DNA from: a virus
DNA: 64,000 bases
Strand: one strand, 5' to 3'
IMG/VR virus record: IMGVR_UViG_3300027816_000052
Location: 480 to 64,479 of that record
Shown here: piece after piece, positions 41,472-62,994 of the stretch
Layout of the letters: every line of letters starts with the position of its first letter
Numbering within the stretch: the first letter of the stretch is position 1
Program-made: the position numbers and the translations under genes
Notes under the pieces: generated by a model
The model's database searches: none
Told to the model about the DNA's origin: nothing
What the model saw: the letters and a program-made list of their open reading frames with translations, nothing else

Positions 41472-41547
41472 TCGAGGTGAGAGGATTTGAACCTCCATGA
41501 TATCTTCGCCCCAAACGAAGAGACTTAGCCAATTAGTCCACACCTCG
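41472..41547 (-). tRNA. tRNA-Pro (anticodon TGG)
   Basis: Acceptor CGAGGTG/CACCTCG, U8, D-arm GAC/GTC with 11-nt loop, anticodon stem CTTCG/CGAAG with loop TTTGGGG, 7-nt variable loop, T-arm GGAGG-TTCAAAT-CCTCT. Confidence 0.6.
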
Positions 41548-43554: not shown

Positions 43555-44159
43555 ACGATATCTTTACTTTCAATTAAGGTGTAGGTAAATCTATTACCGT
43601 GGATATTTCTTGCTTTATTTAAAATTGTCATAAATTCATTAAAGTCTTTGACTCTTTTAAATACAGAACATCCTTCGCTCCAATCGTTTACAAATTGTGA
43701 TTCAGTTTTTGGATTTGAACGATGTATATTAATACCAAAAACACCCTCATGAATTGTTGCGGGGTCCATATCAAATTTCATATCTTTATTTTTATCACGA
43801 TAAACTTTAACAGGTCTGTCTTGACATAAAGCATCATATTTTCCTTGGTGCTTTCTTATAATATATGCACTTCTATATTGACCCGGAACAAGAATTGCAA
43901 CACCCCTTGTATTACTAAATTCTCTCACAGCTTTTGTTCCCGGATCTGTGGTAATATCCCACTCATGATATTTCCACACACCATTTTCTTTATATGTTAA
44001 TGTTAATTTATCATCAAAAACATTTGTAACTCTTGAACCCGGTCCTGAGTTTCTAATGCTAACAACGTTAACATCAAATCCTTTATTTGAATCATCATTA
44101 AACCAAACATAACCTTTTGATTTAAGAGCGTTTTCTATTTTTTCTTTTGAGTATAACAT
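43551..44159 (-). CDS. L,D-transpeptidase (YkuD)-like catalytic domain protein
   Basis: 202 aa. HEGVFGINIHRSNPKTESQFVNDWSEGCSVF matches the YkuD H-x-G ... S-x-G-C-[IV] catalytic signature. Confidence 0.5.
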   Translation of the reverse strand: MLYSKEKIENALKSKGYVWFNDDSNKGFDVNVVSIRNSGPGSRVTNVFDDKLTLTYKENGVWKYHEWDITTDPGTKAVREFSNTRGVAILVPGQYRSAYIIRKHQGKYDALCQDRPVKVYRDKNKDMKFDMDPATIHEGVFGINIHRSNPKTESQFVNDWSEGCSVFKRVKDFNEFMTILNKARNIHGNRFTYTLIESKDIV

Positions 44160-49024: not shown

Positions 49025-50261
49025 AAAATTTAAATTATCTGAAGCTCCGGTTGATTATGGTGATTATCCGGAAAGAATGGACCCAGAAACTGAAAGAAAA
49101 GTTTCAAGTCCCGAAAATCCATTTGCAAAAGCATTAAGAGGTGGTGTTTCTGATGTTGAAAAATTAATCGGTTCTCGATTTAAAAAAGTCGTTGATAAAC
49201 TCAAAGCTGCGACTGGAATTGAGGATTTGAGCAATCATGAGGTTACTAGTAGCTTGGTCAAAGATTTGTTTAATAATATAAATAGCGTTGTTCAAATTGA
49301 ATCGAGATATAAAGAAGAGTTAACAGAATTAGCGATTAAATTAGCGATAGACGCTGCTGATGCTGAAGAAGATTGGTATGAGATTGAGGCTCGTCTTAAT
49401 CCGATTGGGATTGATACTTCAAAGTTTAGATTGAAAAAAGAAGCGCCGCCCAAATTTCAACCCTCAACTTCATTTGAAATGGATACTTTAACAGATGAGG
49501 AAAAATTTGAATTAGAAAAGGCAAAAAGAAATATAATTAATGCTATTGTACAAGGCTCATCAAAAAAAGGACATTATATTTTTCAATTACCAGAAGTTAA
49601 AGAAAAGTTAGATGAAATTAATCCTTCGTTATATGATTTTTACTCTAAAATAATGGCGGTTAATGATATTATGTATTTTACTATGGATAAGCTTATTGAA
49701 GCTGCGAGTAAAACTGGTCGGGGTGTTGCTGGTAAAGTACAAACAATGAGTAATGATGATGAAGACGATGAAAATGCACCAGACATAAAAATTGTTGCTG
49801 AAGGATTAATGTTTCCGATATTAGTTCATGAAATAATAAAAGGTATTGAGGAAGCAAAAGCTAAATATGGTTTACCCGAAGACCCTGAAATGGCGATGAA
49901 AGTTATGGGTCAAACAGATGTTCTTTCTCAGGAACCCATGCAATTAAGAATTGGACCTGAATTAGTGGAGAAAATAAAGTTTGCGTTACCCGCAGAAATT
50001 TTTGAACCCGAAAATAAAGGTTTAATTAGCTTTTTCCAAACTGAACTTTATTCTTTACCAGCTAAAGAATTCTTAGATGTTATTAGTGATATTGTTTCTG
50101 AAAATGATGCTGAGAATAGAAACGGAATAAAAAAATTCAATGATTTATTGAAAATTGCAAAAAACAAAAAAAACCAATACGACAAATCAAAAAAATCAAC
50201 TGATTCGGGTGATGATGAGGATGAGGAATTTGGTTCATTTTTAAAGGACTTAGGTTTATAA
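49017..50261 (+). CDS. Hypothetical protein immediately upstream of the large terminase
   Basis: 414 aa with acidic C-terminus. Sits where a small terminase or neck protein might be, but is too long and has no recognisable motif. Confidence 0.5.
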   Translation: MSKKFKLSEAPVDYGDYPERMDPETERKVSSPENPFAKALRGGVSDVEKLIGSRFKKVVDKLKAATGIEDLSNHEVTSSLVKDLFNNINSVVQIESRYKEELTELAIKLAIDAADAEEDWYEIEARLNPIGIDTSKFRLKKEAPPKFQPSTSFEMDTLTDEEKFELEKAKRNIINAIVQGSSKKGHYIFQLPEVKEKLDEINPSLYDFYSKIMAVNDIMYFTMDKLIEAASKTGRGVAGKVQTMSNDDEDDENAPDIKIVAEGLMFPILVHEIIKGIEEAKAKYGLPEDPEMAMKVMGQTDVLSQEPMQLRIGPELVEKIKFALPAEIFEPENKGLISFFQTELYSLPAKEFLDVISDIVSENDAENRNGIKKFNDLLKIAKNKKNQYDKSKKSTDSGDDEDEEFGSFLKDLGL

Positions 50262-50297
50262 AATCACTCTATTAGTTATTCTAATAGATAATATATA

Positions 50298-52067
50298 ATG
50301 CAAGGATTAACAAAAGAGCAATTAGCGTTAGAGTATGTTAGGTGTTTAAAAAGCACACCATATGCACTTAAAACGTATTTACAAACATATGATAACACGG
50401 TACAAAAATATGTCCCTCTTGAGCTATTCAAAGACCAGCAACAACTAATCAACGATTATGATACGTTTGAAGAAAACATTGCGTTAAAATATCGTCAAGC
50501 TGGCGTATCAACAGCTACAGCGGGTTGGGCTTCAAAAATACTTGCTTTTGCGAAAAAAGAAAAACCTGAAAAAATTCTAATTATTGCAAACAAATTGGAT
50601 ACCGCCGTTGAGATGGCGAATAAGATTAGAAGTTTTATTGACCAGTGGCCTAAATGGGTTGGTATTGAGTTTTCAGATGAAAAGAACGCTGCTAGACATT
50701 TTAAATTAAATAATGATAGTGAGGTTAAAGCTGTTGCCACTTCTAAAGATGCTCTTAGAGGTTATACACCAACAATTCTTATTTTTGATGAGGCAGCTTA
50801 TATTGAAGCTGATGATGATTTCTGGGCTGCTTGTATGGCATCTCTTTCCACCGGTGGTAAAGTCATTGTAATATCAACACCAAACGGATTTGATCCAATT
50901 TATTATGAAATTTATGACCAATCAATTCGTAATATGAATAACTTCAAAATTACAGAAATGTATTGGTATAGAGATCCCAGATATACAAAAGATTTATATC
51001 TAGTTAAAACAAATGATATCGTGGATTATCTTTTAAATAGAGAAGAAAGAAAAGATTTAGAAATTATTGATTTTTCACATATAAGTCCACATGAAAGAGA
51101 TTTTAATATAATCAAGGATTATATTGGTCAAGGGTTCAAACCATGCTCAACATGGTTTGAAAATATGGTTAAAAAATTAAAATATGATAGAAGAAAAGTT
51201 GCACAAGAACTAGATTGTCAGTTTTTAGGTTCAGGTGACAACGTTGTAGATTCAACAATTCTTGAAGATATTAGAGAAAATCAAGTTTGTGAGCCAAAAT
51301 ATAAAACAATGGGAGGTTCTTTATGGGTTTGGAAAGAACCCGAACTTGGTCATAAGTACGTTTGTGGCTTGGATGTCTCAAGAGGAGACAGTGATGATTT
51401 TTCAGCTTTTCAGATAATTGATTTTGAAACCAGAGAACAAGTTGCGGAATATCTTGGTAAAGTACCACCAGATGTGATGGCGGAAATAGCGTATAAGTGG
51501 GGAACAACATATAACGCTTATATTGTTATTGATATTACCGGTGGTATGGGGGTTTCTACTGCTAGAAAATTACAAGAATTAAATTATAAAAATTTATATA
51601 TCGATGGGCTTGAGCTTGGTAATAAATGGAAATATGATGCAAAAGCACTTGATAAAATTCCCGGTATTAATTTCAATAATAAAAGAGTTCAGATTATTTC
51701 TTCATTTGAGGAGGCTTTAAGACATAAATTTAAAGTTTATAGTAGTAGATTATTAAATGAGTTAAATTCATTTGTTTATATTAATGGTAGACCTGATCAC
51801 CAAAAGGGTCGTCATGATGATTTAATCATGTCAATTGCTATGGCAATTTATGTTTCCGAATTTTCTTTCACACAATTAGAAAAAGTTACGGAACATACGA
51901 AAGTTATGATTGAATCATGGCAAGTTAATACATATGAACCAAAACAAACTTCACAATTCTTTAATCCAAGCGTATCTTTTACTGATGATAAAAGTATATA
52001 TAGAAATAACCCAACAAGAAAAGACTATGAACAACATTCTTGGTTATTTGGTGGGATAAGAAGGTAA
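50298..52067 (+). CDS. Terminase large subunit (T4 gp17-like)
   Basis: 589 aa. Walker A-like YRQAGVSTATAG, Walker B ILIFDEAAYI, C-terminal nuclease-like region. Immediately upstream of the portal, as in T4. Confidence 0.85.
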   Translation: MQGLTKEQLALEYVRCLKSTPYALKTYLQTYDNTVQKYVPLELFKDQQQLINDYDTFEENIALKYRQAGVSTATAGWASKILAFAKKEKPEKILIIANKLDTAVEMANKIRSFIDQWPKWVGIEFSDEKNAARHFKLNNDSEVKAVATSKDALRGYTPTILIFDEAAYIEADDDFWAACMASLSTGGKVIVISTPNGFDPIYYEIYDQSIRNMNNFKITEMYWYRDPRYTKDLYLVKTNDIVDYLLNREERKDLEIIDFSHISPHERDFNIIKDYIGQGFKPCSTWFENMVKKLKYDRRKVAQELDCQFLGSGDNVVDSTILEDIRENQVCEPKYKTMGGSLWVWKEPELGHKYVCGLDVSRGDSDDFSAFQIIDFETREQVAEYLGKVPPDVMAEIAYKWGTTYNAYIVIDITGGMGVSTARKLQELNYKNLYIDGLELGNKWKYDAKALDKIPGINFNNKRVQIISSFEEALRHKFKVYSSRLLNELNSFVYINGRPDHQKGRHDDLIMSIAMAIYVSEFSFTQLEKVTEHTKVMIESWQVNTYEPKQTSQFFNPSVSFTDDKSIYRNNPTRKDYEQHSWLFGGIRR

Positions 52068-52079
52068 AAAAGATATAAA

Positions 52080-55000
52080 ATGGAAGATGAAAAACTAACA
52101 ATATGGCAACGACTTTCTAAAGGATTTGGTCCAAACTCATTACTTGGACAAGAAAGTCCAACATTTAAATTTGATAAGAAGGTTTTATTAAAAACACCGA
52201 ATAAGCAAGAGTACGAAAGAGAAAAACTCCAAGCACAACAAACAGCTTATTTAACATACCAATGGAGTAAGATTGAAAATAATTTATATACACAATCAGT
52301 ATATTATGAACCCACTAGATTAGCATCATATTATGATTATGAGAGTATGGAATATTTTCCGGAAATTTCAGCAGCATTAGATACATTTTCGGAAGAATCT
52401 ACAACGCCAAATCAAGATGGTCAAATGTTACAGATTTATTCTGAATCAAAAAGAATTAAATCAATTTTAACAGATTTATTCTATAATCAATTAGATATTA
52501 ACACAAATCTACCCATGTGGACAAGAAATACTTGTAAGTATGGTGATAATTTTGTGTTTTTAAAACTAGACCCAGAAAAAGGTATTGTTGGTTGTTTTCA
52601 ACTACCAAATATTGAAATTGAACGTATTGAAAAGGGGATGGTTAAACGTCCGGGTGGGACACCAAATAGCGACCCAGAAAATAAACAAATGAAATTCTCT
52701 TGGAAACAAAAAGATTTAGATTTTAATACTTGGGAGGTCGCACATTTTAGATTATTGGGTGATGATAGAAAATTACCATACGGTACTTCGATGTTAGAAA
52801 AAGCGAGAAGAATTTGGAAACAATTAGTTCTTGCTGAAGATGCAATGTTAATTTATAGAACATCTAGAGCACCGGAAAGAAGAGTATTTAAAGTTTTTGT
52901 TGGTAATATGGATGATAAAGATGTTGAAGCATATGTGCAAAGATTTGCAAATAAATTTAAGCGAGACCAAGTAGCGGACCCAAAAACGGGTAATGTGGAT
53001 TTACGTTTTAATCAAATGGCGGTAGACCAAGATTATTTTGTACCGGTTAGGGATATTGCTGCACCTAATCCGATTGATACATTACCGGGAGCGTGTATTG
53101 ATTTAAATACCAGAATTCCCCTTCTTGATGGTAGAACTTTAACTTTACAACAAATAATTAATGAGTGGGATAATGGTAATAGAAACTTATGGGTTTATTC
53201 TTGTGACCCAAATACAGGGTCCGTACATCCGGGTATGGTAACTTGGGCTGGTGTAACAAGAAAAGACGCTGAAGTTATTAAAATTACATTAGACAATGGT
53301 GAAGAGGTGATTACAACTCCAGACCATAAATTTGTTCATAGAACTAGAGAATTTGTTGAAGCGAAAGATTTAATTGTTGGGGATAGTTTAATGCCTTTTT
53401 ATTCAAGAACCGAAAAAATAAAGACCAACACTAATGATTATCACCAAATTTTTGATAATGAAAAAAATCAATGGGTTTTTACGCATAGAATGGTAAAAAA
53501 CAGTACTGTTGGTAGTTCTTTAGTAAAAGAATGGGTTTTTAATTCTGAATTTAAAAATAAAGATAAAAAAATAATTCACCATAAAGACCATAATCGCTTT
53601 AATAATAATCCAAATAATTTACTAATAATGAATGGTGAAGACCATTTAAAATATCACCAACATATCATAAAAGAAACGATTTGGAAAGATATTGAACTTA
53701 ATAAGAAAAAAATTTCAGAAGGTATTAAAAATTATTTAAATAATCTTTCTTCAGATGAATTACAAAAAAGACATGAAAGAATTAATAATCCAATATCAAA
53801 AGCTAAAACAACTAAAAAGTTATTGGAATGGAATAAAAATGATGAAAATTTAAAAAATAAAGGTAAAAAAATTTCAAAAGCTTATACAGAAGAAAGAAAA
53901 AATAAGATAAAGGAATTAAATTTAATAAGGTGGTTGAATGATGATTATCGAAATAAAGTTTTTTCTAAAAAACAAACAATAACATTTGATGATTATATAT
54001 ATAATTCATTTGTTAGTGAATTTAAAAAGACTTTACGTGCTGATTTAGCGTTAAAGAACTTAAATAATTCTTTTGAATTTATTTCACATTTTAAACAAAT
54101 TAATGAGGAAATTAGAAGTTCGTTAACAAACTTAAATGAATTCACGCAAAACCATGTAGATAAAATGGTTAAACAACAAGGGTTTAAAAATTTTACTGAA
54201 TGGAAACATTTTGAGTGTAAAAAGAGAGGATTTAAAAATATTCGTCAATGGAAATATAATGTTGAGAAAGAAATTTATTTTAACCATAAAATAACAAAAA
54301 TTGAATGGTTAACAAATAAAATTGACACTGGTACGATTACGGTTGATGGTAATGAATTATATTCAAAATCTCACACTTTTGCTATTGAAAGTGGTATTTT
54401 TATTAAAAATTCTAACCTTTCTGAAATTGCAGATATAGAATACATCCAGAAAAAACTTTTAACAGCATTAAGGATACCAAAAGCGTTCCTTGGGTTTGAA
54501 GAAGTTGTTGCTGATGGTAAAAATCTTGCGTTACAAGATATTCGTTTTGCTAGAACAATTAACAGAATACAAAAAAGTATGTTAGCGGAATTAAATAAAA
54601 TTGCTATTATACATTTATTTATTTTAGGTTTTGAAGATGAACTTTCTAACTTTACATTAGGATTAACAAACCCATCAACACAAGCTGATTTATTAAAGGT
54701 TGAGGTTTGGAAAGAGAAAATCTTACTTTATAAAGACGCTGTTGCAGGAATTGAGGGTATTGCACCAACTTCACATTCTTGGGCTAAAAAACATATTCTT
54801 GGTTTCTCGGATGATGAAATTAAACTTGATATTCAACAACAAAGAATTGAAAAGGCGGTCGCAAAAGAACTTGAGAACACACCAAATGTGATTGTAAAAA
54901 CAGGTATTTTTGATAGTGTTGATGCAATCTACGGTCAAAAAGGTGGTGGTACTCAAGCTGGAACTCCCCCTCAAGAACCAACATCTGATATGACAATGCC

Positions 55001-55220
55001 TGAAACTAGTCCAGCATCATCACCATCAATAACTCCACCAGAAGCTCCTGAGAGCGCACCAACTGAAACTCCAACAACAGTACCTGAATCAAAACAGGAA
55101 AGAGTAAATATTTTACTTGAAGGTGGTCTTTTAAATGAAGATGAAGAAATCGATTTGAGTAAAGCTAGAATTCAATTAGGTGAAATGGAAGAACATTTAA
55201 ATAAACTTCTAAAGTCGTGA
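52080..55220 (+). CDS. Portal protein (T4 gp20-like) interrupted by an in-frame intein
   Basis: 1046 aa. LAEDAMLIYRTSRAPERRVFKVFVGNM...IDTLPGA aligns to T4 gp20 ...[26 protein letters not shown]...VDTLPGA. After the insertion, SNLSEIADIEYIQKKLLTALRIP aligns to T4 [23 protein letters not shown]. Confidence 0.85.
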   Translation: MEDEKLTIWQRLSKGFGPNSLLGQESPTFKFDKKVLLKTPNKQEYEREKLQAQQTAYLTYQWSKIENNLYTQSVYYEPTRLASYYDYESMEYFPEISAALDTFSEESTTPNQDGQMLQIYSESKRIKSILTDLFYNQLDINTNLPMWTRNTCKYGDNFVFLKLDPEKGIVGCFQLPNIEIERIEKGMVKRPGGTPNSDPENKQMKFSWKQKDLDFNTWEVAHFRLLGDDRKLPYGTSMLEKARRIWKQLVLAEDAMLIYRTSRAPERRVFKVFVGNMDDKDVEAYVQRFANKFKRDQVADPKTGNVDLRFNQMAVDQDYFVPVRDIAAPNPIDTLPGACIDLNTRIPLLDGRTLTLQQIINEWDNGNRNLWVYSCDPNTGSVHPGMVTWAGVTRKDAEVIKITLDNGEEVITTPDHKFVHRTREFVEAKDLIVGDSLMPFYSRTEKIKTNTNDYHQIFDNEKNQWVFTHRMVKNSTVGSSLVKEWVFNSEFKNKDKKIIHHKDHNRFNNNPNNLLIMNGEDHLKYHQHIIKETIWKDIELNKKKISEGIKNYLNNLSSDELQKRHERINNPISKAKTTKKLLEWNKNDENLKNKGKKISKAYTEERKNKIKELNLIRWLNDDYRNKVFSKKQTITFDDYIYNSFVSEFKKTLRADLALKNLNNSFEFISHFKQINEEIRSSLTNLNEFTQNHVDKMVKQQGFKNFTEWKHFECKKRGFKNIRQWKYNVEKEIYFNHKITKIEWLTNKIDTGTITVDGNELYSKSHTFAIESGIFIKNSNLSEIADIEYIQKKLLTALRIPKAFLGFEEVVADGKNLALQDIRFARTINRIQKSMLAELNKIAIIHLFILGFEDELSNFTLGLTNPSTQADLLKVEVWKEKILLYKDAVAGIEGIAPTSHSWAKKHILGFSDDEIKLDIQQQRIEKAVAKELENTPNVIVKTGIFDSVDAIYGQKGGGTQAGTPPQEPTSDMTMPETSPASSPSITPPEAPESAPTETPTTVPESKQERVNILLEGGLLNEDEEIDLSKARIQLGEMEEHLNKLLKS
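53094..54410 (+). other. Intein (439 aa) with HNH homing-endonuclease domain inside the portal gene
   Basis: Begins CIDLNTRIPLLDGR (block A) right after the conserved TLPGA. Contains HHKDHNRFNNNPNNLLIMNGEDHLKYH (HNH). Ends ...GIFIKN, followed by +1 Ser. Confidence 0.7.
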
Positions 55221-55247
55221 TATTTATTTAAAAATATATTTTGAAAA

Positions 55248-55955
55248 ATGAAAACCTTTGGAACTATAAAAACAAAAATTGAGGATAAATTAACTGATTC
55301 CTACAAAAAAAATACATTTAAAAAAGAATTAAAGAAATTTAAAACACTTGTTTTAGAAGATAAAAATGTTGTGCAAATTTATCACATTTATGACAATTTA
55401 TCTAAACCTCAAGGATATTCCGAAGAAACATCAAAATTATTTTTAGATGAAGCAATTAATATGGTTAAAAAATCAATCGAAAAAACTGATTTTAAAAAAT
55501 TAAATGAATGGATAAGTGATGTAAAATCTGAAAACAGATATTCACATATTGATATGATTGTTGAGGGTAAAGTCCAACAAATTGAATCTATTATTAATAG
55601 TAAAAAATTAATAATTGAAAATTTACAGAAAAAACAAGATAAGAAAGAGGTAATTAATCTACCACTAAAAACTATGTTAGGTGTAGCAAATAAAGCATTA
55701 AATTCAATTGTGTCTAATTTGAATGAGGAAGAGAAAAAAGAGTTAACTCATATTATTTCTTTATCTGAAAATGATATAAAAATTCAATTTAGTGATTTAA
55801 AGGAAAGTACAATAAAAAAATTAGAAAGTTTATTATTAGAACAAACTGATGTCGAGTTGGTTAATAAGATTCAAGATACTATTACAAAAATAAAAGATGA
55901 GACTCCCGGAAGTTTAAGTCTATATAAGTTACTAACGTTAAATAAAACATTTTAA
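55248..55955 (+). CDS. Hypothetical head-assembly module protein
   Basis: 235 aa, K/E-rich, between portal and protease, where T4 has prohead core genes. Confidence 0.45.
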   Translation: MKTFGTIKTKIEDKLTDSYKKNTFKKELKKFKTLVLEDKNVVQIYHIYDNLSKPQGYSEETSKLFLDEAINMVKKSIEKTDFKKLNEWISDVKSENRYSHIDMIVEGKVQQIESIINSKKLIIENLQKKQDKKEVINLPLKTMLGVANKALNSIVSNLNEEEKKELTHIISLSENDIKIQFSDLKESTIKKLESLLLEQTDVELVNKIQDTITKIKDETPGSLSLYKLLTLNKTF

Positions 55956-56025
55956 AAAAAATTTGTTAATTCAGTATTTGTTTTCTATACTTTAAAAAAT
56001 AAACTTTTATGTGAGATGAGTATAG

Positions 56026-56496
56026 ATGAAGACAGGAAAAACATTAAAACTAACCGGTTATAATAATATAAAAGTTAGTTACGGTACGGTGGATTTTAAA
56101 AATTTTAAATCGTTATATTTAAATATTCAAAGTTGGTTGCAACCAAAGATTGATTTGGAAGATTGGGATCGAGTCGTGGGTAATTTACGAAAAGATGTAA
56201 AGCACGTAATTCATGATATATTAAATCCAATTTTTTTTGAAAATAATTATATTGTTGATTTGGATTTAAGAACTAGCGGAATCCAATATGGAAAAAGGAG
56301 TTTTATGAATTTAGAAATAACACTTTACGTTAAAAACAATATAAACTTTAAATCAAGTGAACTTAGAAATGAACTTAATTACATTTCAAGAACAATAAAT
56401 GATAATGTCTTTTTAAATAATAAATATTTTACATATTCAATAACAAAAAAGATTACACAAGAAAATATATTAGAAAATACACATATTTATAGATAA
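56026..56496 (+). CDS. Hypothetical head-assembly module protein
   Basis: 156-aa ORF. Confidence 0.45.
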   Translation: MKTGKTLKLTGYNNIKVSYGTVDFKNFKSLYLNIQSWLQPKIDLEDWDRVVGNLRKDVKHVIHDILNPIFFENNYIVDLDLRTSGIQYGKRSFMNLEITLYVKNNINFKSSELRNELNYISRTINDNVFLNNKYFTYSITKKITQENILENTHIYR

Positions 56497-56506
56497 AAAA
56501 TTATCT

Positions 56507-57229
56507 ATGAAAATCTTAGGACCAAACGAAATAGGACAAAGAGGTATTCTTATTGAAATGGATGCTGGTTATATTTCACCAAGTGATGAACGTAATTTAG
56601 CAATCATTAAAGAATCTAAAAACTTATTGGATTATTCAAAACCATTTGAATTTTATGCTGTATTACAAAAATACGGAGTACCAAACAGAAATGGTAGAAT
56701 TTATCCTGAAAGTATATTAAAAAGAGAATCTGAAAATTATTTAAAATTAATCAAACAAGGGAAAGCTATGAGTGAATTAAATCACCCAGAATCTTCCCTT
56801 ATTGATTTGGATAGAGTTTCACATCTTATTACAGATATGTGGTGGGACGGTCATATTTTAATGGGTAAATTAAAGTTATTAACATCACCCGGATTCCATG
56901 AAAGAGGTATTGTATCAACAAAAGCGGACATTGCTGCTAATTTGTTAAGACACGGTGCAACTTTGGGTATTTCCTCAAGAGGTGTTGGTTCATTGGTTAA
57001 AAAGGGTGAACAAAATGAGGTTCAATCAGATTTTGAATTAATTTGTTTTGATTTGGTATCATCACCTTCAACACCGGGTGCGTATCTCTTTAGTGATGTT
57101 AATGATAGAAACAAATTTGAAGAGAATATTGAGGAAGAGAAAAAATTGAGACAGCAGCCTATTTCAGATAAAAAAGAAATTAAGTCACTTGACTTAATGA
57201 AAAGATTATCCGATTATTTGGGAAAATAA
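56507..57229 (+). CDS. Candidate prohead core protease (T4 gp21 position)
   Basis: 240 aa between portal and scaffold genes. Contains a NRNGRIYPESI segment and conserved His/Ser residues. Assignment is by synteny plus weak motif recall. Confidence 0.45.
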   Translation: MKILGPNEIGQRGILIEMDAGYISPSDERNLAIIKESKNLLDYSKPFEFYAVLQKYGVPNRNGRIYPESILKRESENYLKLIKQGKAMSELNHPESSLIDLDRVSHLITDMWWDGHILMGKLKLLTSPGFHERGIVSTKADIAANLLRHGATLGISSRGVGSLVKKGEQNEVQSDFELICFDLVSSPSTPGAYLFSDVNDRNKFEENIEEEKKLRQQPISDKKEIKSLDLMKRLSDYLGK

Positions 57230-57246
57230 TCTAAAACATTTTAAAA

Positions 57247-57462
57247 ATGAACGAAAATCAAAAGTATTTTGTGGCAAAAGTTTCTTTGGACATTCCAGAT
57301 CTTGACAGCGGTAGAATTAAAACAAAAAAAGAAGAGAAATTAGTTATGGGATATTCCGTAACTGATGTTGAAGCTAAAATTACAAAAAAATATGAAGGAT
57401 TTCCTAGTGATTGGAGAATTACTGCGGTAGTTGAGAGTAAAATAGATGAGGTGATAAGTTAA
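57247..57462 (+). CDS. Hypothetical small protein
   Basis: 71-aa ORF followed by a terminator. Confidence 0.4.
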   Translation: MNENQKYFVAKVSLDIPDLDSGRIKTKKEEKLVMGYSVTDVEAKITKKYEGFPSDWRITAVVESKIDEVIS

Positions 57463-57487
57463 TAACTTTATAAATAATTTAATAAAA

Positions 57488-57513
57488 AGAGGACATTTTG
57501 TCCTCTTTTTTTG
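57488..57513 (+). terminator. Rho-independent terminator
   Basis: AGAGGACA-ttttg-TGTCCTCT followed by TTTTTTT. Confidence 0.7.
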
Positions 57514-57566
57514 TTTTTTTATGATTTTTTCAAATTAGCACATATTTATTGTTAAAAATATAATAA

Positions 57567-59114
57567 ATGTCAGAAAAAAAATCATTAGTAGAAGATACTC
57601 TAATCCAAATGAGAAATTTGGAGGAAGCTATCCAAGAAAATGCAAAAGGAATACTTGCTTCAACCATGAAGGAAGAAATCAGTGATTTAGTAAAAGAGTC
57701 TTTAAATGAGACTGAAACAGAAGAGGAAATGGATGAAATGGAAATGGAGTCCAAGACCGATGATAAAGTTGACGAGCAAGAGTCATCCGATTTAGAAATG
57801 GACATGGATATGGAAGATGAAGTTAGTGACGAATCTGAAGAAGAGTCTGATGAAGATTCAGAAGAGATGATGGGCGCTGAAATGAATCTTGACATGGACG
57901 TAGAAGATGAAGTCCCGATGGACTTAACAAACGCATCAACAGAAGAGCTTTTAAAAGTTTTTAAAGCTATGGGTGAAGAAGATGGTATTATCGTTAAAAA
58001 AGAAGATGATAAAATCCATCTAAAAGATGATTCAGAAGGTGTTGAATATATGATTGATTTAGGAGAAAGCATTAATGAACAACCTCTTGATTTGGGCGAT
58101 GAGTCTGAGGAAGAAGAATTTGACTTTAATTTAGATGATGAATCTGAAGATGAGGAATTTGAATTCGATGAGTTTGAAGAAAGAATGCCAATGCGTAAAT
58201 CACATAGAATTCGCAAAATGAAAAGAGATGAAGAAATGCATGAACAATCATTTGCGGATGAGACAGAGTCTGAAAAACAAGCCGATATTGATGCGATGTT
58301 AGACGATATCTTTAATGAATCAGAAGTATCTGAGGAGGAAGAGGTTGTCTATGAAATTGAGCTAGATGAAGAGGATGATAATGAAGATATGACGGAAGAA
58401 ACTGAAGAAACAGATGAGGAAATGAATGAAACCTATGATTTAGAGGAAGCATTCAAACCAAAAATGTTCAAAGGTAAAAATCCTGAAAATAAAACAAATA
58501 AAGGTCCGAAAAAGATGTTAATGAAAAAACCTACCGGAAAAATGTTTGGTATGACACCAAAAATCGGTAAAACAACAAAAACATCGGAATCTGATGTAAA
58601 GAAAGTTGAGACCAAAGAAGCAGCAAGAACCTTGGGTATGGGTAGTAAATTTAGAAAAGGTGGTTTACCAAAACCTAAAGCTGCCCCAAGACATCTCGGA
58701 GAAGATTTTGATTTTGAAGCGATGAACGCTGAGTTAGTTTCTTTAAGAGAAAAAAATGAAGAATATAGAAAAGCATTAAATATCTTCAGAGAAAAACTTA
58801 ATGAGGTTGCTATATTCAATTCAAATCTTGCTTATGCGACAAGACTTTTCACCGAACATTCAACTTCTAAGCAAGAAAAAATTAATATTCTTAGAAGATT
58901 TGATGGTGTTGAGACAATTAAGGAATCTAAAAATCTTTACACAACAATAAAAGAGGAATTAAGTTCCAAGGGTGTTACACCAATAACCGAATCGATTGAG
59001 TCAAAAATTGAAAAAACTCCATCTAGCGGTTCTGCGGCTAATTTGATTGAGTCAAAAACTTATGAGAATCCGCAGTTCTTGAGAATGAAAGACCTCATGA
59101 ATAAAATAAAATAA
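57567..59114 (+). CDS. Acidic prohead scaffold protein (T4 gp22 position)
   Basis: 515 aa. Extremely D/E-rich central region, helical K/E-rich ends, directly upstream of the major capsid gene. Confidence 0.6.
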   Translation: MSEKKSLVEDTLIQMRNLEEAIQENAKGILASTMKEEISDLVKESLNETETEEEMDEMEMESKTDDKVDEQESSDLEMDMDMEDEVSDESEEESDEDSEEMMGAEMNLDMDVEDEVPMDLTNASTEELLKVFKAMGEEDGIIVKKEDDKIHLKDDSEGVEYMIDLGESINEQPLDLGDESEEEEFDFNLDDESEDEEFEFDEFEERMPMRKSHRIRKMKRDEEMHEQSFADETESEKQADIDAMLDDIFNESEVSEEEEVVYEIELDEEDDNEDMTEETEETDEEMNETYDLEEAFKPKMFKGKNPENKTNKGPKKMLMKKPTGKMFGMTPKIGKTTKTSESDVKKVETKEAARTLGMGSKFRKGGLPKPKAAPRHLGEDFDFEAMNAELVSLREKNEEYRKALNIFREKLNEVAIFNSNLAYATRLFTEHSTSKQEKINILRRFDGVETIKESKNLYTTIKEELSSKGVTPITESIESKIEKTPSSGSAANLIESKTYENPQFLRMKDLMNKIK

Positions 59115-59137
59115 ACCTAAAAAACAATTAAAAAACA

Positions 59138-60997
59138 ATGGGTGCATTATTAGAAAGCGGTCTTGTTGGTAACATTGGTCTTAAGCATCTTAAGGTTATC
59201 AAGGAAGACACAATTAACAAGTGGGACAAATTAGGATTCTTAGAGGGTCTTAGAGGTCACTTAAAGGAAAACATGGCTCAGTTGTATGAAAACCAAGCTT
59301 CACATCTTATTAACGAAGCTGCTTCAACAACTGATAGCGGTTCATTTGAAACCGTAGTTTTCCCGATTATCAGAAGAGTTTTCTCAAAACTCTTGGCGAA
59401 CGATATCGTATCAGTTCAAGCCATGAACCTTCCTATCGGTAAGTTATTCTACTTTATTCCGAGAATTCAGGGTTATACCGGCGCTACTGCTGATGCCGCT
59501 ATCCCCGGTGGTTTCTCAGATTCAGGTCAGCACTACGCTCCGGTTGGTTCTCCCGGTAACTATCCCGGAGATCCTAACACTGGATATCCCCCTGCTTCAA
59601 ATGCTTATGGAAAGAATCTTTACGATCTCTTCTATGAGGGTAATGAGCCGGGATTAAATCCTGCCGGTCTTTTCGATTACTCAAAGGGTAGATTCCTCAT
59701 CGTAACTGCTAACACACAAACTGTTGCTTGGAGCGGTTCTGACCTTATCGCTTCTGCTTACACCGCTGGTGAATTCAGAAAGATTTTAGTCGCTCTTTCA
59801 GGTTTCTCAACTGTAGGTGCTGGTAAGCTTATTGGTCCTGATGGTCAAGAAATGGATACAGAGTCATTCTTGTCAGATCTTACTCTTTATACTTCAAACG
59901 CAACAGTTGCTTCACAATTAGGTACTTCGACAATAACTCCTCTTCTTTACAGAGTTGTAACTCAGAAGTATGGTAAGGGTATTGTTGAGTACGGTACCAC
60001 AACTCAGGCTCCGTTTAACAGAACTACAACTGGTGGAAATGGTGGTTACTTTGATAACATCTGCTCACCGACCGGTATCATTTACCTCGAAGTTGACGCT
60101 CAAGTCCCTGTTTGTATTTCATGTAATAACGCTAACACAATTGATGGTTACTCTGGTGCCACTATTACATCTGCCGCTTGGTCAGGTTCATCTGGAAGTG
60201 GTCAAATTATGGCAGCTTGGAAGCGTTACGAAGAACTCGAATTTGAAGACAAGATTGGTGAAGTTTCGTTTGACCTTCAGTCAGTAACTGTTTCAGTAAC
60301 TGAAAGAAAGTTAAGAGCACAATGGTCACCTGAACTCGCTCAAGACGTTGCGGCTTTCCACAACATTGATGCTGAGGCTGAATTAACCGCTCTCTTATCT
60401 GAACAAGTTGCTGCTGAAATCGACAGAGAAATCTTAAGAGATTTAAGAAAGGGTGCTGCTTGGACATTAAGATGGGATTACAATGGTTGGAAGAGATTAG
60501 GTACCGCTGCTGTTCCTTATACCCAAAAGGACTGGAACCAGACCCTCATCACCGCTATCAACCAAATCTCAGCACAAATCCACAAGTCAACCTTAAGAGG
60601 TGGTGCTAACTGGATTGTTGTATCATCTGAAATCTCAGCTATCTTCGACGATCTCGAATACTTCCACGTTTCAAACGCTGCTCCTGAACAGGATCAGTAC
60701 AACATGGGTATTGAGAAAATCGGTACATTAGCTGGAAGATATCAGGTTTACAGAGATCCTTACTTCCCACCCAACACTGTGTTGCTCGGTCACAAGGGAA
60801 CCTCTCTCTTAGATACTGGTTACGTCTACGCTCCGTATGTACCTCTCCAGTTAACTCCGACAATGTACAATCCGTTCAACTTTACCCCGATTAAGGGTAT
60901 CATGACCCGTTACGCCAAAAAAATGGTAAATAACCGGTTCTATGGTAGAATTACTGTTGACGGTGTTCGTTCATTTGACTTAAGAGAATTGAGATAA
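59138..60997 (+). CDS. Major capsid protein (T4 gp23-like)
   Basis: 619 aa. VFPIIRRVFSKLLANDIVSVQAMNLPIGKLFYFIPR aligns to gp23 MVRRAIPNLIAFDICGVQPMNSPTGQVFALRAV. C-terminal GRYQVYRDPYF...GYVYAPYVPLQLTPT...FNFTPIKGIMTRYA aligns to GKYRVYIDQYA...GIYYAPYVALTPL...FQPVMGFKTRYG. Codon usage shifted to C/G-ending codons. Confidence 0.9.
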   Translation: MGALLESGLVGNIGLKHLKVIKEDTINKWDKLGFLEGLRGHLKENMAQLYENQASHLINEAASTTDSGSFETVVFPIIRRVFSKLLANDIVSVQAMNLPIGKLFYFIPRIQGYTGATADAAIPGGFSDSGQHYAPVGSPGNYPGDPNTGYPPASNAYGKNLYDLFYEGNEPGLNPAGLFDYSKGRFLIVTANTQTVAWSGSDLIASAYTAGEFRKILVALSGFSTVGAGKLIGPDGQEMDTESFLSDLTLYTSNATVASQLGTSTITPLLYRVVTQKYGKGIVEYGTTTQAPFNRTTTGGNGGYFDNICSPTGIIYLEVDAQVPVCISCNNANTIDGYSGATITSAAWSGSSGSGQIMAAWKRYEELEFEDKIGEVSFDLQSVTVSVTERKLRAQWSPELAQDVAAFHNIDAEAELTALLSEQVAAEIDREILRDLRKGAAWTLRWDYNGWKRLGTAAVPYTQKDWNQTLITAINQISAQIHKSTLRGGANWIVVSSEISAIFDDLEYFHVSNAAPEQDQYNMGIEKIGTLAGRYQVYRDPYFPPNTVLLGHKGTSLLDTGYVYAPYVPLQLTPTMYNPFNFTPIKGIMTRYAKKMVNNRFYGRITVDGVRSFDLRELR

Positions 60998-61024
60998 TAG
61001 ACTCAAAAACAACAAAATAAAGAA

Positions 61025-61050
61025 GGCGGGAGATTTCTCCCGCTTTTTTT
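61025..61050 (+). terminator. Rho-independent terminator after the capsid gene
   Basis: GCGGGAG-attt-CTCCCGC followed by TTTTTTT. Confidence 0.75.
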
Positions 61051-61116
61051 ATTTATATTTTTCATGGTTAATTGACGATTCTATGGATTAATGTTATATT
61101 TATTAAAAAGGTAAAA

Positions 61117-62544
61117 ATGAAAAAAATAGAACCAACAAAAGAACAAGTAGAAGAAATGCTACATTTATATAATGTCGAGTTACTTGGTTCTCCGACAATA
61201 GCGGAAAAAATGGGGCTATCAAAACCAACTGTAATACGTATCCTAAAAGAAAATGGTGCTAAGTTTGGACCGTCTGGTAGAAAATTTAAAGGGGGTAAAT
61301 CAGTTTCCGATAAAAAATACCGAACTAAAAAAGAAGTTGTTGATAGAATAAAAAGTTATTTTAAAAATTGGTCAAAAGAAAACAAAGAACATTTAAATGA
61401 ATATTGTAAAAATTGGACTGAAAAAAACATAGAAAGGGTAAGAGCAAAAAAAGCCCAATATGAGCGAGAGAAAAAAGCAAAAGACCCCAAATACAAAATA
61501 TCCAGCGTATTTAGAACCGCACTATATACAGCGTTAAAAGAAAAGGATATTCTTAAAGATAAAAAATGTTTTGAGTTATTAGGTTACACTAAAAATGATT
61601 TAATAAAACATTTAACTAAATTACTAGAACCCGGAATGACCTTAGAAAATTATGGTGAGTGGCATATCGATCATATAATTCCAATATCTAAATTTAATTA
61701 CACCTCAACGCAAGATGATGAATTTAAGGAATGTTGGTCATTAAGTAATTTAAAACCCATGTGGGGTCCAGAAAACATTAGTAAGAGTGATAAGATTATT
61801 GCGCATCAATATAAAATAAGACAACAAAAAGAAATCGAACAACAAAATGCAATTGATTTTAATATTACAAAAGTAAGTTTAAAGAATTGTGAAATTAGAC
61901 AGATAACTAGAAAAGAATGTGAACCAATCATAAATGAATATGAATGGTTAGGTTATCTTCCAAGATATACAAATTATTATTTTGGTATTTTCTTTAAGAT
62001 TGACGATAGAGAAATTCTTGGGGGTGTTGTCGCATATCAACCCGAATATGGTGAGAATATGGGGGTATGGGATAAATATGGTTATACGGGTAAAATAATA
62101 CAATTAAGCAGAGGTGTTTGTCTTTGGTGGACACCAAAAAATACAGCATCTTTCTTTATTACAAGAACAAATGAATGGTTAAAAAAGAATACACACTATA
62201 AGGTAGTTACAGCAACCGTGGACTCTTCCGCTGGTGAAATTGGTACTATATATCAATCAATGAATTGGTATTATGTTGGTACGTTTGGTGGTAATATAAC
62301 AAAAACCGGTAAAGAGAGAATTCGTTATGGTTATATTATAAATGGTAAGACATACAATCAAAGACATATAAGAAGTATGATTGGTACAGCAAAAAAAGAA
62401 AATGTGTTAAAGCATTTTCCAGATGTTAAAATGGTTAATTTGGGTAGGAAAAAAAGATATTTTACTTTCTTAGGTAATAAGAAAGAAAACGAAGAACTAT
62501 TCAAACCAATAAAAAATTTAATTAAGGAATATCCGAAACGATAA
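61117..62544 (+). CDS. HNH homing-endonuclease-like protein with N-terminal HTH and a large C-terminal domain
   Basis: ORF track starts at 61072. ATG at 61117 (MKKIEP) has an AAGG 8 nt upstream. HNH core GEWHIDHIIPISKFNYTSTQDDEFKECWSLSNLKPMWGPENISKSDK. Confidence 0.65.
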   Translation: MKKIEPTKEQVEEMLHLYNVELLGSPTIAEKMGLSKPTVIRILKENGAKFGPSGRKFKGGKSVSDKKYRTKKEVVDRIKSYFKNWSKENKEHLNEYCKNWTEKNIERVRAKKAQYEREKKAKDPKYKISSVFRTALYTALKEKDILKDKKCFELLGYTKNDLIKHLTKLLEPGMTLENYGEWHIDHIIPISKFNYTSTQDDEFKECWSLSNLKPMWGPENISKSDKIIAHQYKIRQQKEIEQQNAIDFNITKVSLKNCEIRQITRKECEPIINEYEWLGYLPRYTNYYFGIFFKIDDREILGGVVAYQPEYGENMGVWDKYGYTGKIIQLSRGVCLWWTPKNTASFFITRTNEWLKKNTHYKVVTATVDSSAGEIGTIYQSMNWYYVGTFGGNITKTGKERIRYGYIINGKTYNQRHIRSMIGTAKKENVLKHFPDVKMVNLGRKKRYFTFLGNKKENEELFKPIKNLIKEYPKR

Positions 62545-62546: not shown

Positions 62547-62789
62547 TTACCAAATTATTTTTTTCCAATCATCAATAAGTTTTTTTCTTTTTTCTTGGTC
62601 AATTCCAAGACTTTTTAAATCGTCCTCAATTTTTTGAACTAGTGTTGTTCTTTGTTCAATGATATTATCAACACCACCACCAAATGAAATTACCTTTCCA
62701 ATTTTTGTTACATTAGATAAAACTTCATGGTATTCTTGGGATGTTAATCCGGTTAAATGAAAGTTTGCTTGATATAATTGTTCACTCAT
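62547..62789 (-). CDS. Hypothetical small protein
   Basis: 80-aa ORF, overlaps the upstream minus-strand ORF by 8 nt. Confidence 0.45.
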   Translation of the reverse strand: MSEQLYQANFHLTGLTSQEYHEVLSNVTKIGKVISFGGGVDNIIEQRTTLVQKIEDDLKSLGIDQEKRKKLIDDWKKIIW

Positions 62790-62994
62790 TGGTCATTATA
62801 TATCTTAAAGCTTTGGATACAACTTCACTCTCCTCAAGAGAAAAGACTCCTCTTGAGTGTGCTGCTTTTATTGCTTGATTTAAACAATAAATTGCTTGTT
62901 CATTTGTCATTCCATTTGAAAAAGCATCCAAATCATTATTTGAATAATAATTTATTGAATTAAATAACGTACCTATTGGTGTTTTTTCTTCCAT
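62782..62994 (-). CDS. Hypothetical small protein
   Basis: 70-aa ORF. It is the first gene of a 2-gene minus-strand pair inside an otherwise plus-strand module. Confidence 0.45.
   Translation of the reverse strand: MEEKTPIGTLFNSINYYSNNDLDAFSNGMTNEQAIYCLNQAIKAAHSRGVFSLEESEVVSKALRYIMTNE

What the first reader, a model, noticed from the sequence alone, without database searches (positions are those of the whole stretch)
53094..54410. HNH-endonuclease-containing intein in the portal protein
The gp20-like portal is interrupted right after the conserved TLPGA by a 439-aa insertion. It begins with Cys (CIDLNTRIPLLDGR), contains an HNH motif (HHKDHNRFNNNPNNL…NGEDHLKYH) and ends …GIFIKN before +1 Ser. 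The flanks align colinearly with T4 gp20. The intein lacks the usual penultimate His (KN instead of HN). A second, free-standing HNH endonuclease follows the capsid gene at 61117..62544. That endonuclease is adjacent to a minus-strand 2-gene pair (62547..62994) of TA-module size that breaks the plus-strand run. Together with the Clp intein and the DUF559-like gene in the tRNA cluster, the phage carries a heavy load of selfish elements.
Basis: partly seen in the sequence, partly recalled or inferred. Interest (0 to 1): 0.55.

Follow-up and report, generated by a model that had tools for sequence, protein, structure and literature searches.

The report
HNH homing intein in portal gene
The phage's portal gene is interrupted by a real self-splicing protein element (an intein) that carries its own DNA-cutting enzyme; this is a known kind of selfish element, and it belongs to a large metagenome-only family that has settled at many sites in portal genes.

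Summary
Observation confirmed exactly. The portal ORF (52080..55220, 1046 aa) has a 439-aa in-frame insert at 53094..54410. The insert starts with Cys, ends in Lys-Asn and is followed by Ser.

It is an intein, not a portal domain:
- 118 of the 120 closest portal clusters (72-83% identical) read DTLPGA|QNLSEIADIEY straight through this site.
- C1, TPDH, a block-F His and the terminal Asn are invariant across the family alignment.
- A near-identical phage contig carries the same insert, under purifying selection (omega 0.13 overall, 0.14-0.17 in the nuclease part).

The middle of the insert is an HNH beta-beta-alpha-metal nuclease followed by helical modules.

The penultimate Lys is the norm for this lineage: 43 of 61 inteins at this site have it.

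Wider context:
- The family has 2271 clusters at E<=1e-30, and almost all top hits are T4-type portals.
- It occupies at least 25 insertion points. They cluster where T4 gp20 has its clip region, channel loop and tunnel loop.
- Up to four complete copies occur in one gene.
- Among GenBank phage records I found it only in uncultured huge-phage portals.

Side claims fared less well. The "free-standing HNH" gene is an EndoVII/HNH-Mom fusion. The toxin-antitoxin idea has no support. I found no Clp intein.

Verdict: new member of a known kind, moderate interest.

The parts
52080..53093 (+). N-extein of the T4 gp20-type portal protein (aa 1-338), ending ...PIDTLPGA
   Evidence: Pfam Portal_T4 stretch 84-338. 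Aligns to T4 gp20 residues 254-353. 72-83% identical to uninterrupted portals.
53094..54410 (+). Whole intein: 439 aa, Cys1 to Asn439
53094..53423 (+). N-terminal splicing region (intein residues 1-110). Block A Cys1 is at 53094..53096. Block B TPDH (residues 75-78) is at 53316..53327.
   Evidence: TIGR01445 matches residues 1-81. C1, T75, P76 and H78 are invariant in alignment A3. Beta-strands with pLDDT 94-98. omega 0.055 against L004.
53571..53657 (+). HNH motif IIHHKDHNRFNNNPNNLLIMNGEDHLKYH (intein residues 160-188), the beta-beta-alpha-metal core of the endonuclease
   Evidence: The model has strand 160-163, strand 176-179 and helix 181-195. PHROG HNH endonuclease families match at E 1.5e-5. 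Pfam HNH_3 scores 18.6 bits, below its cutoff. The motif is kept in all large family members.
53658..54284 (+). Lys/Asn-rich helical region of the endonuclease (intein residues 189-397), probably the DNA-binding modules
54285..54410 (+). C-terminal splicing region (intein residues 398-439). Block F His427 is at 54372..54374. Penultimate Lys438 and terminal Asn439 are at 54405..54410.
   Evidence: H427 and N439 are invariant in A3. The local C-block HMM scores E 3.7e-24. The model places strands 399-438 in the HINT fold.
54411..54413 (+). +1 Ser codon (TCT), the C-extein nucleophile
   Evidence: Intein-free alleles have CAA (Gln, 102 clusters) or Thr (17 clusters) here.
54411..55220 (+). C-extein of the portal (aa 778-1046 plus stop), starting SNLSEIADIEYIQ
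   Evidence: Aligns to T4 gp20 residues 355-508 and to uninterrupted relatives.

Best explanation
The segment 53094..54410 is a class 1 intein carrying an HNH homing endonuclease. It sits in the essential portal gene of a large T4-like phage.

Inferred mechanism (standard intein chemistry, not shown here):
1. The gene is translated as a 1046-aa precursor.
2. Cys339 attacks the Ala338 peptide bond.
3. The N-extein is passed to Ser778.
4. Asn777 cyclises and releases the intein. The invariant block-F His probably assists, in place of the missing penultimate His.
5. A normal peptide bond forms, giving a 607-aa portal that reads ...DTLPGA-SNLSEIADIEY...

The released 439-aa protein is an I-HmuI-like HNH nuclease with helical DNA-binding modules. 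In a cell co-infected by a related phage whose portal gene lacks the intein, it would cut or nick near the sequence ...CCGGGTGCT|CAAAACCTA.... Recombinational repair from the intein-bearing copy would then copy in the intein together with the adjacent Ser codon.

The copy in this window is one member of a very large intein family found almost only in T4-type portals.
For: Shown:
- Exact in-frame insertion with Cys1, Asn439 and +1 Ser.
- 118 of the 120 closest portal clusters (72-83% identity) are about 600-630 aa long and read DTLPGA|Q/T-NLSEIADIEY straight through.
- The syntenic relative L005 shows the empty site at DNA level.
- An independent contig (L004/L008, portal 95% identical in amino acids) carries the same 439-aa insert.
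- Pfam Intein_splicing and TIGR01445 score above their cutoffs.
- C1, T75/P76/H78, H427 and N439 are invariant in the family alignment.
- In a census of 277 complete family inteins, 276 start with Cys, 277 end in Asn, 276 are followed by Ser, Thr or Cys (the other is cut at the end of its record), 275 have T..H and 241 have the block-F His.
- Removing the predicted inteins in silico from portals with 3-4 copies gives 553-615 aa portals.
- Nei-Gojobori comparison with L004: omega is 0.129 for the intein (45 synonymous, 29 non-synonymous changes), 0.142 for the HNH region and 0.166 for the helical region. The exteins give 0.057 and 0.099.
- In related portals at this site, full-length, HNH-less (189-201 aa) and empty forms all occur. 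That is the pattern expected of a homing cycle.

From the literature:
- Portal inteins, HNH inteins and phage inteins without the penultimate His (including Lys) are all documented (PMC5050341; bioRxiv 10.1101/2025.01.02.630785).
Against: - Neither splicing nor DNA cleavage was tested.
- The penultimate His is absent. NCBIfam reported no C-terminal splicing-region family for the insert.
- The selection estimate rests on one sequence pair with modest counts.
- The intein is rare among the 120 closest portal clusters: apart from the cluster of this phage's own near-identical relative (P0121), none carries it at this site. An efficiently homing element might be expected to be more common.
- GC3 of the intein (0.16) matches the host gene (0.16-0.20), so there is no compositional sign of recent arrival.
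Confidence: 0.85

Rival explanations
1. The intein still splices, but its HNH domain no longer works as a homing nuclease. It would be decaying, or kept for another reason such as helping the intein fold or binding DNA. The element would then be inherited only vertically in this lineage.
For: Many family members have lost the domain altogether: 117 of 277 are under 300 aa. Some retain visibly degraded HNH remnants. The intein is rare among the closest portals. Pfam HNH_3 is below its cutoff.
Against: The full HH..D...NN.P.NL...DH...H motif is intact and matches the large family members. omega is 0.14-0.17 in the nuclease and helical regions, far below neutrality. A 290-aa useless domain would be expected to be lost, as it was in P0026 and P0356.
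Confidence: 0.15
2. The intein acts as a conditional or slow-splicing switch that the phage uses to time or limit production of functional portal. The non-canonical Lys-Asn ending would tune the rate.
For: In a mycobacteriophage intein the penultimate residue strongly changes precursor accumulation (PMC5050341). Lys is kept at this position in 43 of 61 inteins at this site. The insertion lies in the channel loop of a protein that nucleates head assembly (PMC4493910).
Against: Almost all close relatives do without the intein, so it is not needed for portal function. Nothing in the sequence points to a sensor. The distribution fits a selfish element. This reading does not exclude the main one.
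Confidence: 0.08
3. The insert is a permanent, non-splicing decoration domain of the portal, or an assembly chimera.
For: None beyond the missing penultimate His and the lack of experimental data.
Against: The insert interrupts the equivalent of the T4 channel loop, which lines the DNA channel (PMC4493910). It has a complete HINT fold with all nucleophiles. It is absent from 118 of 120 close relatives. It is present in an independent assembly and in hundreds of other portals with the same exact boundaries.
Confidence: 0.02

Closest known systems
Portal-protein inteins of mycobacteriophages and other actinobacteriophages (Kelley et al. 2016, PMC5050341; Gosselin et al. 2025, bioRxiv 10.1101/2025.01.02.630785)
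   Same: Class 1 inteins in phage portal genes. They have a sporadic distribution and frequently lack the penultimate His; Lys is among the replacements reported.
   Different: Those portals are recorded under a different InterPro family (IPR009279), not T4 gp20/PF07230. In the actinobacteriophage survey most inteins (712 of 784) carry LAGLIDADG endonucleases, and portal is not among the four host proteins listed for the non-canonical endonucleases (10.1101/2025.01.02.630785). Here the nuclease is HNH, and the family is spread over many sites of one protein.
In-frame HNH-endonuclease inteins: first reported by Dalgaard et al. 1997 (as cited in both papers above); actinobacteriophage examples in Gosselin et al. 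2025
   Same: The HNH nuclease is inserted between the N- and C-terminal halves of the splicing domain and is translated in frame.
   Different: In the actinobacteriophage survey the non-canonical endonucleases occur in DNA polymerase, minor capsid, terminase and thymidylate synthase genes. That survey describes them as rare. I did not compare sequences with those inteins.
I-HmuI, HNH homing endonuclease (PDB 1u3e)
   Different: I-HmuI is not part of an intein. The match is weak (13% identity), so this is a resemblance in architecture, not shown membership of one family.
NrdJ-1 intein (PDB 8ubs) and other mini-inteins (Npu DnaB, Mtu RecA)
   Different: About 20% identity, a different host protein and no endonuclease domain.
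Portal of the uncultured 484-kb phage LR756508.1 (locus L001, 1282..5442)
   Same: A T4-type portal with an HNH intein of the same family that also ends in Lys-Asn (27% identity over the whole intein, 38.8% in the N-terminal splicing part).
   Different: There the intein sits about 37 residues further downstream (after ...EKELEGK). The same gene holds two further canonical mini-inteins. The record has no annotation.

Membership tests
Intein (HINT superfamily), class 1 | Nucleophile (Cys/Ser) as the first residue of the insert | tested here: met
   Cys at intein position 1, nt 53094..53096. 276 of 277 family members have Cys.
Intein (HINT superfamily), class 1 | Block B Thr-x-x-His | tested here: met
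   TPDH at intein residues 75-78. T75, P76 and H78 are invariant in A3. T..H is present in 275 of 277.
Intein (HINT superfamily), class 1 | C-terminal Asn followed by a Ser/Thr/Cys +1 extein residue | tested here: met
   Asn439 then Ser (TCT). 277 of 277 end in Asn. +1 is S in 247, T in 19 and C in 10.
Intein (HINT superfamily), class 1 | Penultimate His in block G (usual but not universal) | tested here: not met
   Lys438. At this insertion site 43 of 61 family inteins have Lys and 2 have His. Phage inteins without this His are documented, and a block-F His can take over its role (PMC5050341). His427 is invariant here.
Intein (HINT superfamily), class 1 | HINT fold formed by the N- and C-terminal parts of the insert | tested here: met
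Intein (HINT superfamily), class 1 | Curated sequence models reach their thresholds | tested here: met
   TIGR01445 intein_Nterm scores 41.7 bits against 24.5. Pfam PF14890 scores 36.5 against 35.8 for the insert alone, but 34.0 when the whole portal is scanned. NCBIfam reported no C-terminal splicing-region family for the insert.
Intein (HINT superfamily), class 1 | Precise in-frame insertion in a conserved host protein that has intein-free homologues | tested here: met
   118 of the 120 closest portal clusters are uninterrupted at DTLPGA|QNLSEI. The DNA of the empty site is seen in L005-L007, L009 and L010.
Intein (HINT superfamily), class 1 | Protein splicing actually occurs | not testable with these tools
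   Needs expression and protein analysis. The indirect support is that the portal is essential and the splicing region is under strong purifying selection (omega 0.055).
Class 3 intein (Trp-Cys-Thr triplet; an internal Cys makes the first attack, as described in PMC5050341) | Conserved Trp-Cys-Thr triplet | tested here: not met
   No Trp in block B (TTPDHKF) and no Cys in the C-terminal blocks (KIDTGTITVDGNELYSKSHTFAIESGIFIKN). Cys1 is present. Read directly from the sequence.
HNH (His-Me finger) homing endonuclease | Beta-beta-alpha-metal motif with the conserved His / Asn / His(Asn) residues | tested here: met
   IIHHKDHNRFNNNPNNLLIMNGEDHLKYH lies on strand 160-163, strand 176-179 and helix 181-195 of the model. 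The motif is conserved in the large family members.
HNH (His-Me finger) homing endonuclease | Curated family model reaches threshold | tested here: inconclusive
   Pfam HNH_3 scores 18.6 bits, below the 24.8 cutoff. Three PHROG 'HNH endonuclease' families match at E 1.5e-5 to 3.9e-5. Relatives such as P0338 and P0380 pass HNH_3 with 45-58 bits.
HNH (His-Me finger) homing endonuclease | Sporadic presence among close relatives, with empty, full-length and nuclease-less forms (homing cycle) | tested here: met
   Empty in 118 of 120 close clusters. Full-length in P0121, P0001, P0328 and P0290. HNH-less at 189-201 aa in P0026 and P0356 at the same site.
HNH (His-Me finger) homing endonuclease | Cleaves or nicks the intein-free allele and promotes its conversion | not testable with these tools
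   Needs a nuclease assay or mixed infection.
T4 gp20-type portal protein (PF07230) | Profile match across the protein, and synteny with terminase, prohead protease and gp23-type capsid genes | tested here: met
   Portal_T4 E 2.2e-65. T4 gp20 structures match at E 5e-17. Neighbours are Terminase_6N upstream, then Peptidase_S77 and Gp23 downstream.
Toxin-antitoxin module (for the pair 62547..62994) | Recognisable toxin or antitoxin family | tested here: not met
   No Pfam or PHROG match. tblastn finds nothing for one ORF and one weak hit for the other. Both are kept at the same place in L008, and one of them in L009. PADLOC was not searched.

The most novel reading that the evidence does not exclude
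The window's intein is one copy of a large, apparently undescribed intein superfamily that specialises in T4-type portal proteins.
- Size: 2271 clusters at 50% identity with E<=1e-30.
- Host: 136 of the 143 top representatives not already retrieved are portals.
- Sites: at least 25 different insertion points, concentrated where T4 gp20 has its clip region, inner clip loop, channel loop and tunnel loop.
- Stacking: up to four complete copies in one gene, only 11-14 residues apart.
- Ending: the majority end in Lys-Asn.
- Cultured phages: no sequenced isolate in GenBank carries a close member in its portal.

If this holds, the family would be a natural system for studying how a homing intein changes target site within one protein, and how an essential 12-mer ring protein tolerates serial splicing.
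Probability: 0.45. Interest if true: 0.55.

Novelty: new member of a known kind. Interest (0 to 1): 0.38.

Why it matters
For this genome the result is a correct annotation. The mature portal is 607 aa, and the 439-aa middle is a mobile element, not a portal domain.

Beyond this genome there are three points of interest:
- The family behind this copy is a compact natural experiment in intein site-switching and stacking inside a single essential gene.
- The Lys-Asn ending, combined with an invariant block-F His, offers many natural sequences for studying splicing without the penultimate His.
- Mini-inteins of 142-150 aa from this family could be candidates for protein-engineering tools. That would need testing.

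Tried and rejected
- Megablast of 50000..62000 against 50,697 phage records found no match. The phage has no close sequenced relative there.
- tblastn of the intein against the same records gave 11 records. LR756508.1 holds a clear family member in its portal. A short match in LR756511.1 lies next to that record's portal match. The remaining matches lie under other annotated genes or unannotated sequence.
- The idea that KN marks a defective or odd intein was rejected. It is the commonest ending in the family.
- A co-conversion tract around the site, sought as 90-nt sliding identity against L005, showed no clear signal.
- A compositional sign of recent transfer was rejected. GC3 of the intein equals that of the host gene. 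The low GC of the nuclease part follows from its Lys/Asn-rich composition.
- A second intein of this family elsewhere in the window was sought by six-frame search with local HMMs. Nothing scored below E 0.1.
- 'Clp intein': the ClpB-like ORF 18905..21091 has contiguous AAA/ClpB domains and no intein hit. The relative L009 has a 672-aa version.
- 'DUF559-like gene in the tRNA cluster': I found an Endonuclease VII gene at 41936..42340. DUF559 itself was not seen in the ORFs I scanned.
- The toxin-antitoxin reading of 62547..62994 has no support.
I repeated it without that row.
Full report
**1. What is in the sequence**

The ORF 52080..55220 on the + strand encodes 1046 aa. It begins CIDLNTRIPLLDGR and contains IIHHKDHNRFNNNPNNLLIMNGEDHLKYH (intein residues 160-188). 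It ends GIFIKN, and the next codon is TCT, Ser.

Pfam finds the T4 portal family in two stretches (E 2.2e-65) separated by an Intein_splicing match. That match has E 5.4e-9 and scores 36.5 bits against a cutoff of 35.8 when the insert is scanned alone. NCBIfam's intein N-terminal model scores 41.7 bits against a cutoff of 24.5.

The flanks align colinearly with the solved T4 gp20 portal. Query 239-338 matches gp20 254-353, and query 779-924 matches gp20 355-508.

The neighbours are a T4-type large terminase upstream, and a prohead protease and a gp23-type capsid protein downstream.

**2. It is an insertion, not a portal domain**

I joined the two flanks into a 607-aa protein and searched the 5.8-billion-protein collection. 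The 120 best clusters are 72-83% identical over the full length. Of these, 118 are 597-631 aa long, so they have no insert.

At the site they read DTLPGA|QNLSEIADIEY. The residue after the junction is Gln in 102 clusters and Thr in 17.

The two exceptions are:
- P0121 is a 1046-aa protein, 95% identical to the window's portal, with the same insert. It comes from an independent ENA assembly.
- P0123 has no insert at this site. It carries a different, canonical mini-intein at LPYGT|SILEKARR.

Syntenic contigs show the empty site at DNA level. L005 reads ...CCG GGT GCT|CAA AAC CTA..., and the window reads ...CCG GGA GCG|[1317 nt]|TCT AAC CTT....

Gln cannot act as the +1 nucleophile. The Ser codon differs from CAA at all three positions. 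Under the homing model the Ser codon would therefore have come in with the intein. This is an inference, not shown.

More distant cultured relatives also lack the insert: Microcystis phage Mel-JY01 and Flavobacterium phage immuto, at 38% and 33% identity.

**3. It has the fold and the residues of an intein**

I aligned the insert with 27 family members (A3). The invariant positions include Cys1, Thr75-Pro76-x-His78 (block B), His427 (block F) and Asn439.

An AlphaFold2 model built on that alignment has mean pLDDT 87.1. Residues 1-110 and 399-439 are almost all beta-strand with pLDDT above 90.

There is no Trp-Cys-Thr triplet, so this is a class 1 intein.

The missing penultimate His is real. 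Phage inteins without it, including ones with Lys, are documented, and a block-F His can take over its role (PMC5050341). That His is invariant here.

**4. The middle part is an HNH nuclease with helical modules**

In the model the HNH motif lies on strand 160-163, strand 176-179 and helix 181-195. This is the beta-beta-alpha-metal arrangement.

Three PHROG families annotated as HNH endonuclease match residues 111-247 at E about 1e-5. Pfam HNH_3 is below its cutoff for this copy (18.6 bits). Relatives with the same domain pass it with 45-58 bits.

**5. Is it maintained?**

The window and L004 differ at about 6% of nucleotides. Nei-Gojobori estimates of omega are as follows.

| Region | omega |
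|---|---|
| N-extein | 0.057 |
| C-extein | 0.099 |
| Whole intein | 0.129 (45 synonymous, 29 non-synonymous differences) |
| N-terminal splicing part | 0.055 |
| HNH region | 0.142 |
| Helical region | 0.166 |
| C-terminal splicing part | 0.178 |

Both the splicing part and the nuclease part have therefore been under purifying selection since these two phages diverged. This rests on a single pair of sequences.

GC3 of the intein (0.16) equals that of the host gene (0.16-0.20). The low overall GC of the nuclease part reflects its amino-acid composition.

**6. The family behind this copy**

A word-indexed search with the intein found 190 proteins. Nearly all of the 120 listed carry the portal Pfam domain.

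A full profile search of 1.84 billion cluster representatives found 13,097 hits at E<=1e-3, 4,515 at E<=1e-10 and 2,271 at E<=1e-30. Of the 143 top representatives not already in hand, 136 match a local portal HMM. Five of the other seven were scanned against Pfam, and their host parts showed no recognisable family beyond weak AAA_5 hits.

I delimited 277 complete inteins in the proteins in hand:

| Feature | Count (of 277) |
|---|---|
| Start with Cys | 276 |
| End with Asn | 277 |
| +1 residue | Ser 247, Thr 19, Cys 10 |
| Penultimate residue | Lys 135, His 74, other 68 |
| Size classes | 117 under 300 aa (mostly 135-250 aa); 160 of 300 aa or more (mostly 350-450 aa) |
| HNH-like motif | 116 of the 160 that are 300 aa or longer; 3 of the 117 shorter ones |

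Some short members keep visibly decayed HNH remnants.

I mapped the junctions onto the window's spliced portal. This gives at least 25 insertion points:
- The two most populated are after residue 313 (n=77) and after residue 338, the window's site (n=62 including the window).
- Further clusters lie at 301-305, 315, 322-326, 337-342, 351, 362 and 371-377.
- A few sites lie in the N-terminal half.

At site 338 the penultimate residue is Lys in 43 of 61 inteins and His in 2.

For T4 gp20 numbering I used the alignment and the residue ranges in PMC4493910:
- Site 338 falls after Ala353, inside the channel loop (350-359). That loop narrows the DNA channel and is described as exceptionally well conserved.
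- Sites 322-326 correspond to about 337-341, at the inner clip loop (R338, K342).
- Sites 371-377 correspond to about 389-396, inside the tunnel loop (374-398).

These correspondences come from sequence offsets, not from a structural superposition.

Inteins mostly group by site. For 214 of 260 inteins, the nearest neighbour below 90% identity sits at the same site, against about 16% expected by chance. This fits site-specific homing with occasional moves to new sites.

Portals with several copies exist:
- P0253 has four mini-inteins at sites 305, 313, 324 and 338, separated by 11-14 extein residues.
- P0241 has three.
- Removing the predicted inteins leaves 553-615 aa in the portals with 3-4 copies, the size of a normal portal.

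The top of the hit list is biased towards multi-copy proteins, because their scores add up. These numbers therefore show existence, not frequency.

At site 338, relatives with 57-70% extein identity carry full-length HNH versions (P0328, P0290, P0263, P0267, P0325) or HNH-less versions of 189-201 aa (P0026, P0356). Together with the many empty alleles, all three stages of a homing cycle are present.

**7. What is known**

Portal inteins are reported in mycobacteriophages and other actinobacteriophages. In-frame HNH inteins are reported but described as rare. Loss of the penultimate His is a noted feature of phage inteins (PMC5050341; bioRxiv 10.1101/2025.01.02.630785).

Dense intein and intron loads are described for crAss-like and jumbo gut phages (PMC7886860; PMC12880540).

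My literature searches found no description of an HNH-intein family in T4-type portals. The library is incomplete, so this is only absence of evidence.

Among 50,697 GenBank phage records, LR756508.1 (an uncultured huge phage) holds a clear family member in its portal. A short match in LR756511.1 lies next to that record's portal match. The LR756508.1 portal has three inteins.

**8.

The ORF after the capsid gene (61117..62544):
- It combines an Endonuclease VII/HNH-type nuclease (about aa 73-228) with a Mom-like domain. Pfam gives E 4.8e-19 and PHROG 'Mom-like DNA modification protein' gives E 1.6e-21.
- No phage record covers 80% or more of it.
- It is 98% identical in L008 and absent at that position in L009 and L010.
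- It is therefore a variable gene, but not a plain HNH endonuclease.

The two small minus-strand ORFs 62547..62994:
- They have no family match.
- They are conserved in place in relatives.
- Nothing supports a toxin-antitoxin reading.

Other remarks:
- I found no intein in the ClpB-like ORF and no other copy of this intein family in the window.
- An Endonuclease VII gene lies next to the tRNA cluster.

**9. Verdict**

This is a genuine class 1 intein with an HNH homing endonuclease in the portal gene. It is a new member of a known kind.

Splicing and homing are inferred, not shown.

The wider family, with its portal specificity, many sites and stacked copies, is the more interesting result and deserves a proper survey.

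Noticed in passing
window 61117..62544 (+) (ORF from TTG at 61072): The gene after the capsid gene fuses an Endonuclease VII/HNH-type nuclease (about aa 73-228) to a Mom-like DNA-modification domain (about aa 260-475). No record among 50,697 phages covers 80% or more of it. It is 98% identical in the relative L008, although neighbouring genes are 79-96% identical. It is absent at this position in L009 and L010.
   Followed up: partly
L001 (LR756508.1, uncultured 484-kb phage) 1282..5442: This unannotated 1386-aa portal ORF holds three inteins. Two are canonical minis ending ..HN (aa 230-379 after YLPYGK; aa 393-533 after RRTWKQL). One is an HNH intein of the window's family ending KN (aa 658-1115 after EKELEGK).
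   Followed up: partly
proteins P0253, P0241, P0243, P0245, P0282, P0286 (metagenomic portals): These portals carry three or four complete inteins of this family, separated by only 11-26 extein residues. Removing the inteins leaves 553-602 aa. P0253 has four minis at sites 305, 313, 324 and 338.
   Followed up: partly
protein P0123 (closest-clade portal, 767 aa); equivalent window site about 52785 (KLPYGT|SMLEKARR): A close relative has a canonical mini-intein (...GIVVHN|S) at LPYGT|SILEKARR. The same site is occupied in LR756508.1. In the window that site is empty.
   Followed up: no
window 62547..62789 (-) and 62782..62994 (-): Two small overlapping minus-strand ORFs (80 and 70 aa) have no Pfam or PHROG match. 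They are conserved at the same place in L008 (79% and 96%), and the 70-aa ORF has a 46%-identical homologue in L009. L008 has two extra ORFs (358 aa on +, 165 aa on -) between the Mom gene and this pair that the window lacks.
   Followed up: partly
window 41936..42340 (-): An Endonuclease VII (PF02945, E 7.7e-16) gene lies beside the tRNA cluster.
   Followed up: no
window 18905..21091 (-): A phage-encoded ClpB/ClpC-like double-AAA+ protein (727 aa) has contiguous domains and no intein match. The relative L009 has a 672-aa version.
   Followed up: partly
window 59138..60997 (+): The major capsid gene has much higher GC (0.43; GC3 0.36) than the window (0.31). The best-scoring stretch of the Gp23 Pfam match covers only aa 353-604 of 619. 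The N-terminal part may hold extra sequence, but I did not examine it.
   Followed up: no
window 1703..41547 (tRNAs); 37300..38817 (-): The window has 22 tRNA genes in three clusters. A protein with a CHU_C type IX secretion sorting domain, together with the Flavobacterium-phage similarity of the portal, hints at a Bacteroidota host. Related portals lie on contigs up to about 320 kb.
   Followed up: no
L008 484..1161 (-): The near-identical relative's contig carries a GIY-YIG/NUMOD3 homing-endonuclease gene beside the ORF that matches window 43551..44159 in length and position (202 aa, minus strand; homology assumed, not tested). I did not check whether the window has it.
   Followed up: no
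protein P0020 (portal, intein after ...SKRHL): One family intein appears to be followed by Gln (…GIYTRN|QMMEDFW) instead of Ser, Thr or Cys. It may be inactive, or my boundary may be off by a residue.
   Followed up: no
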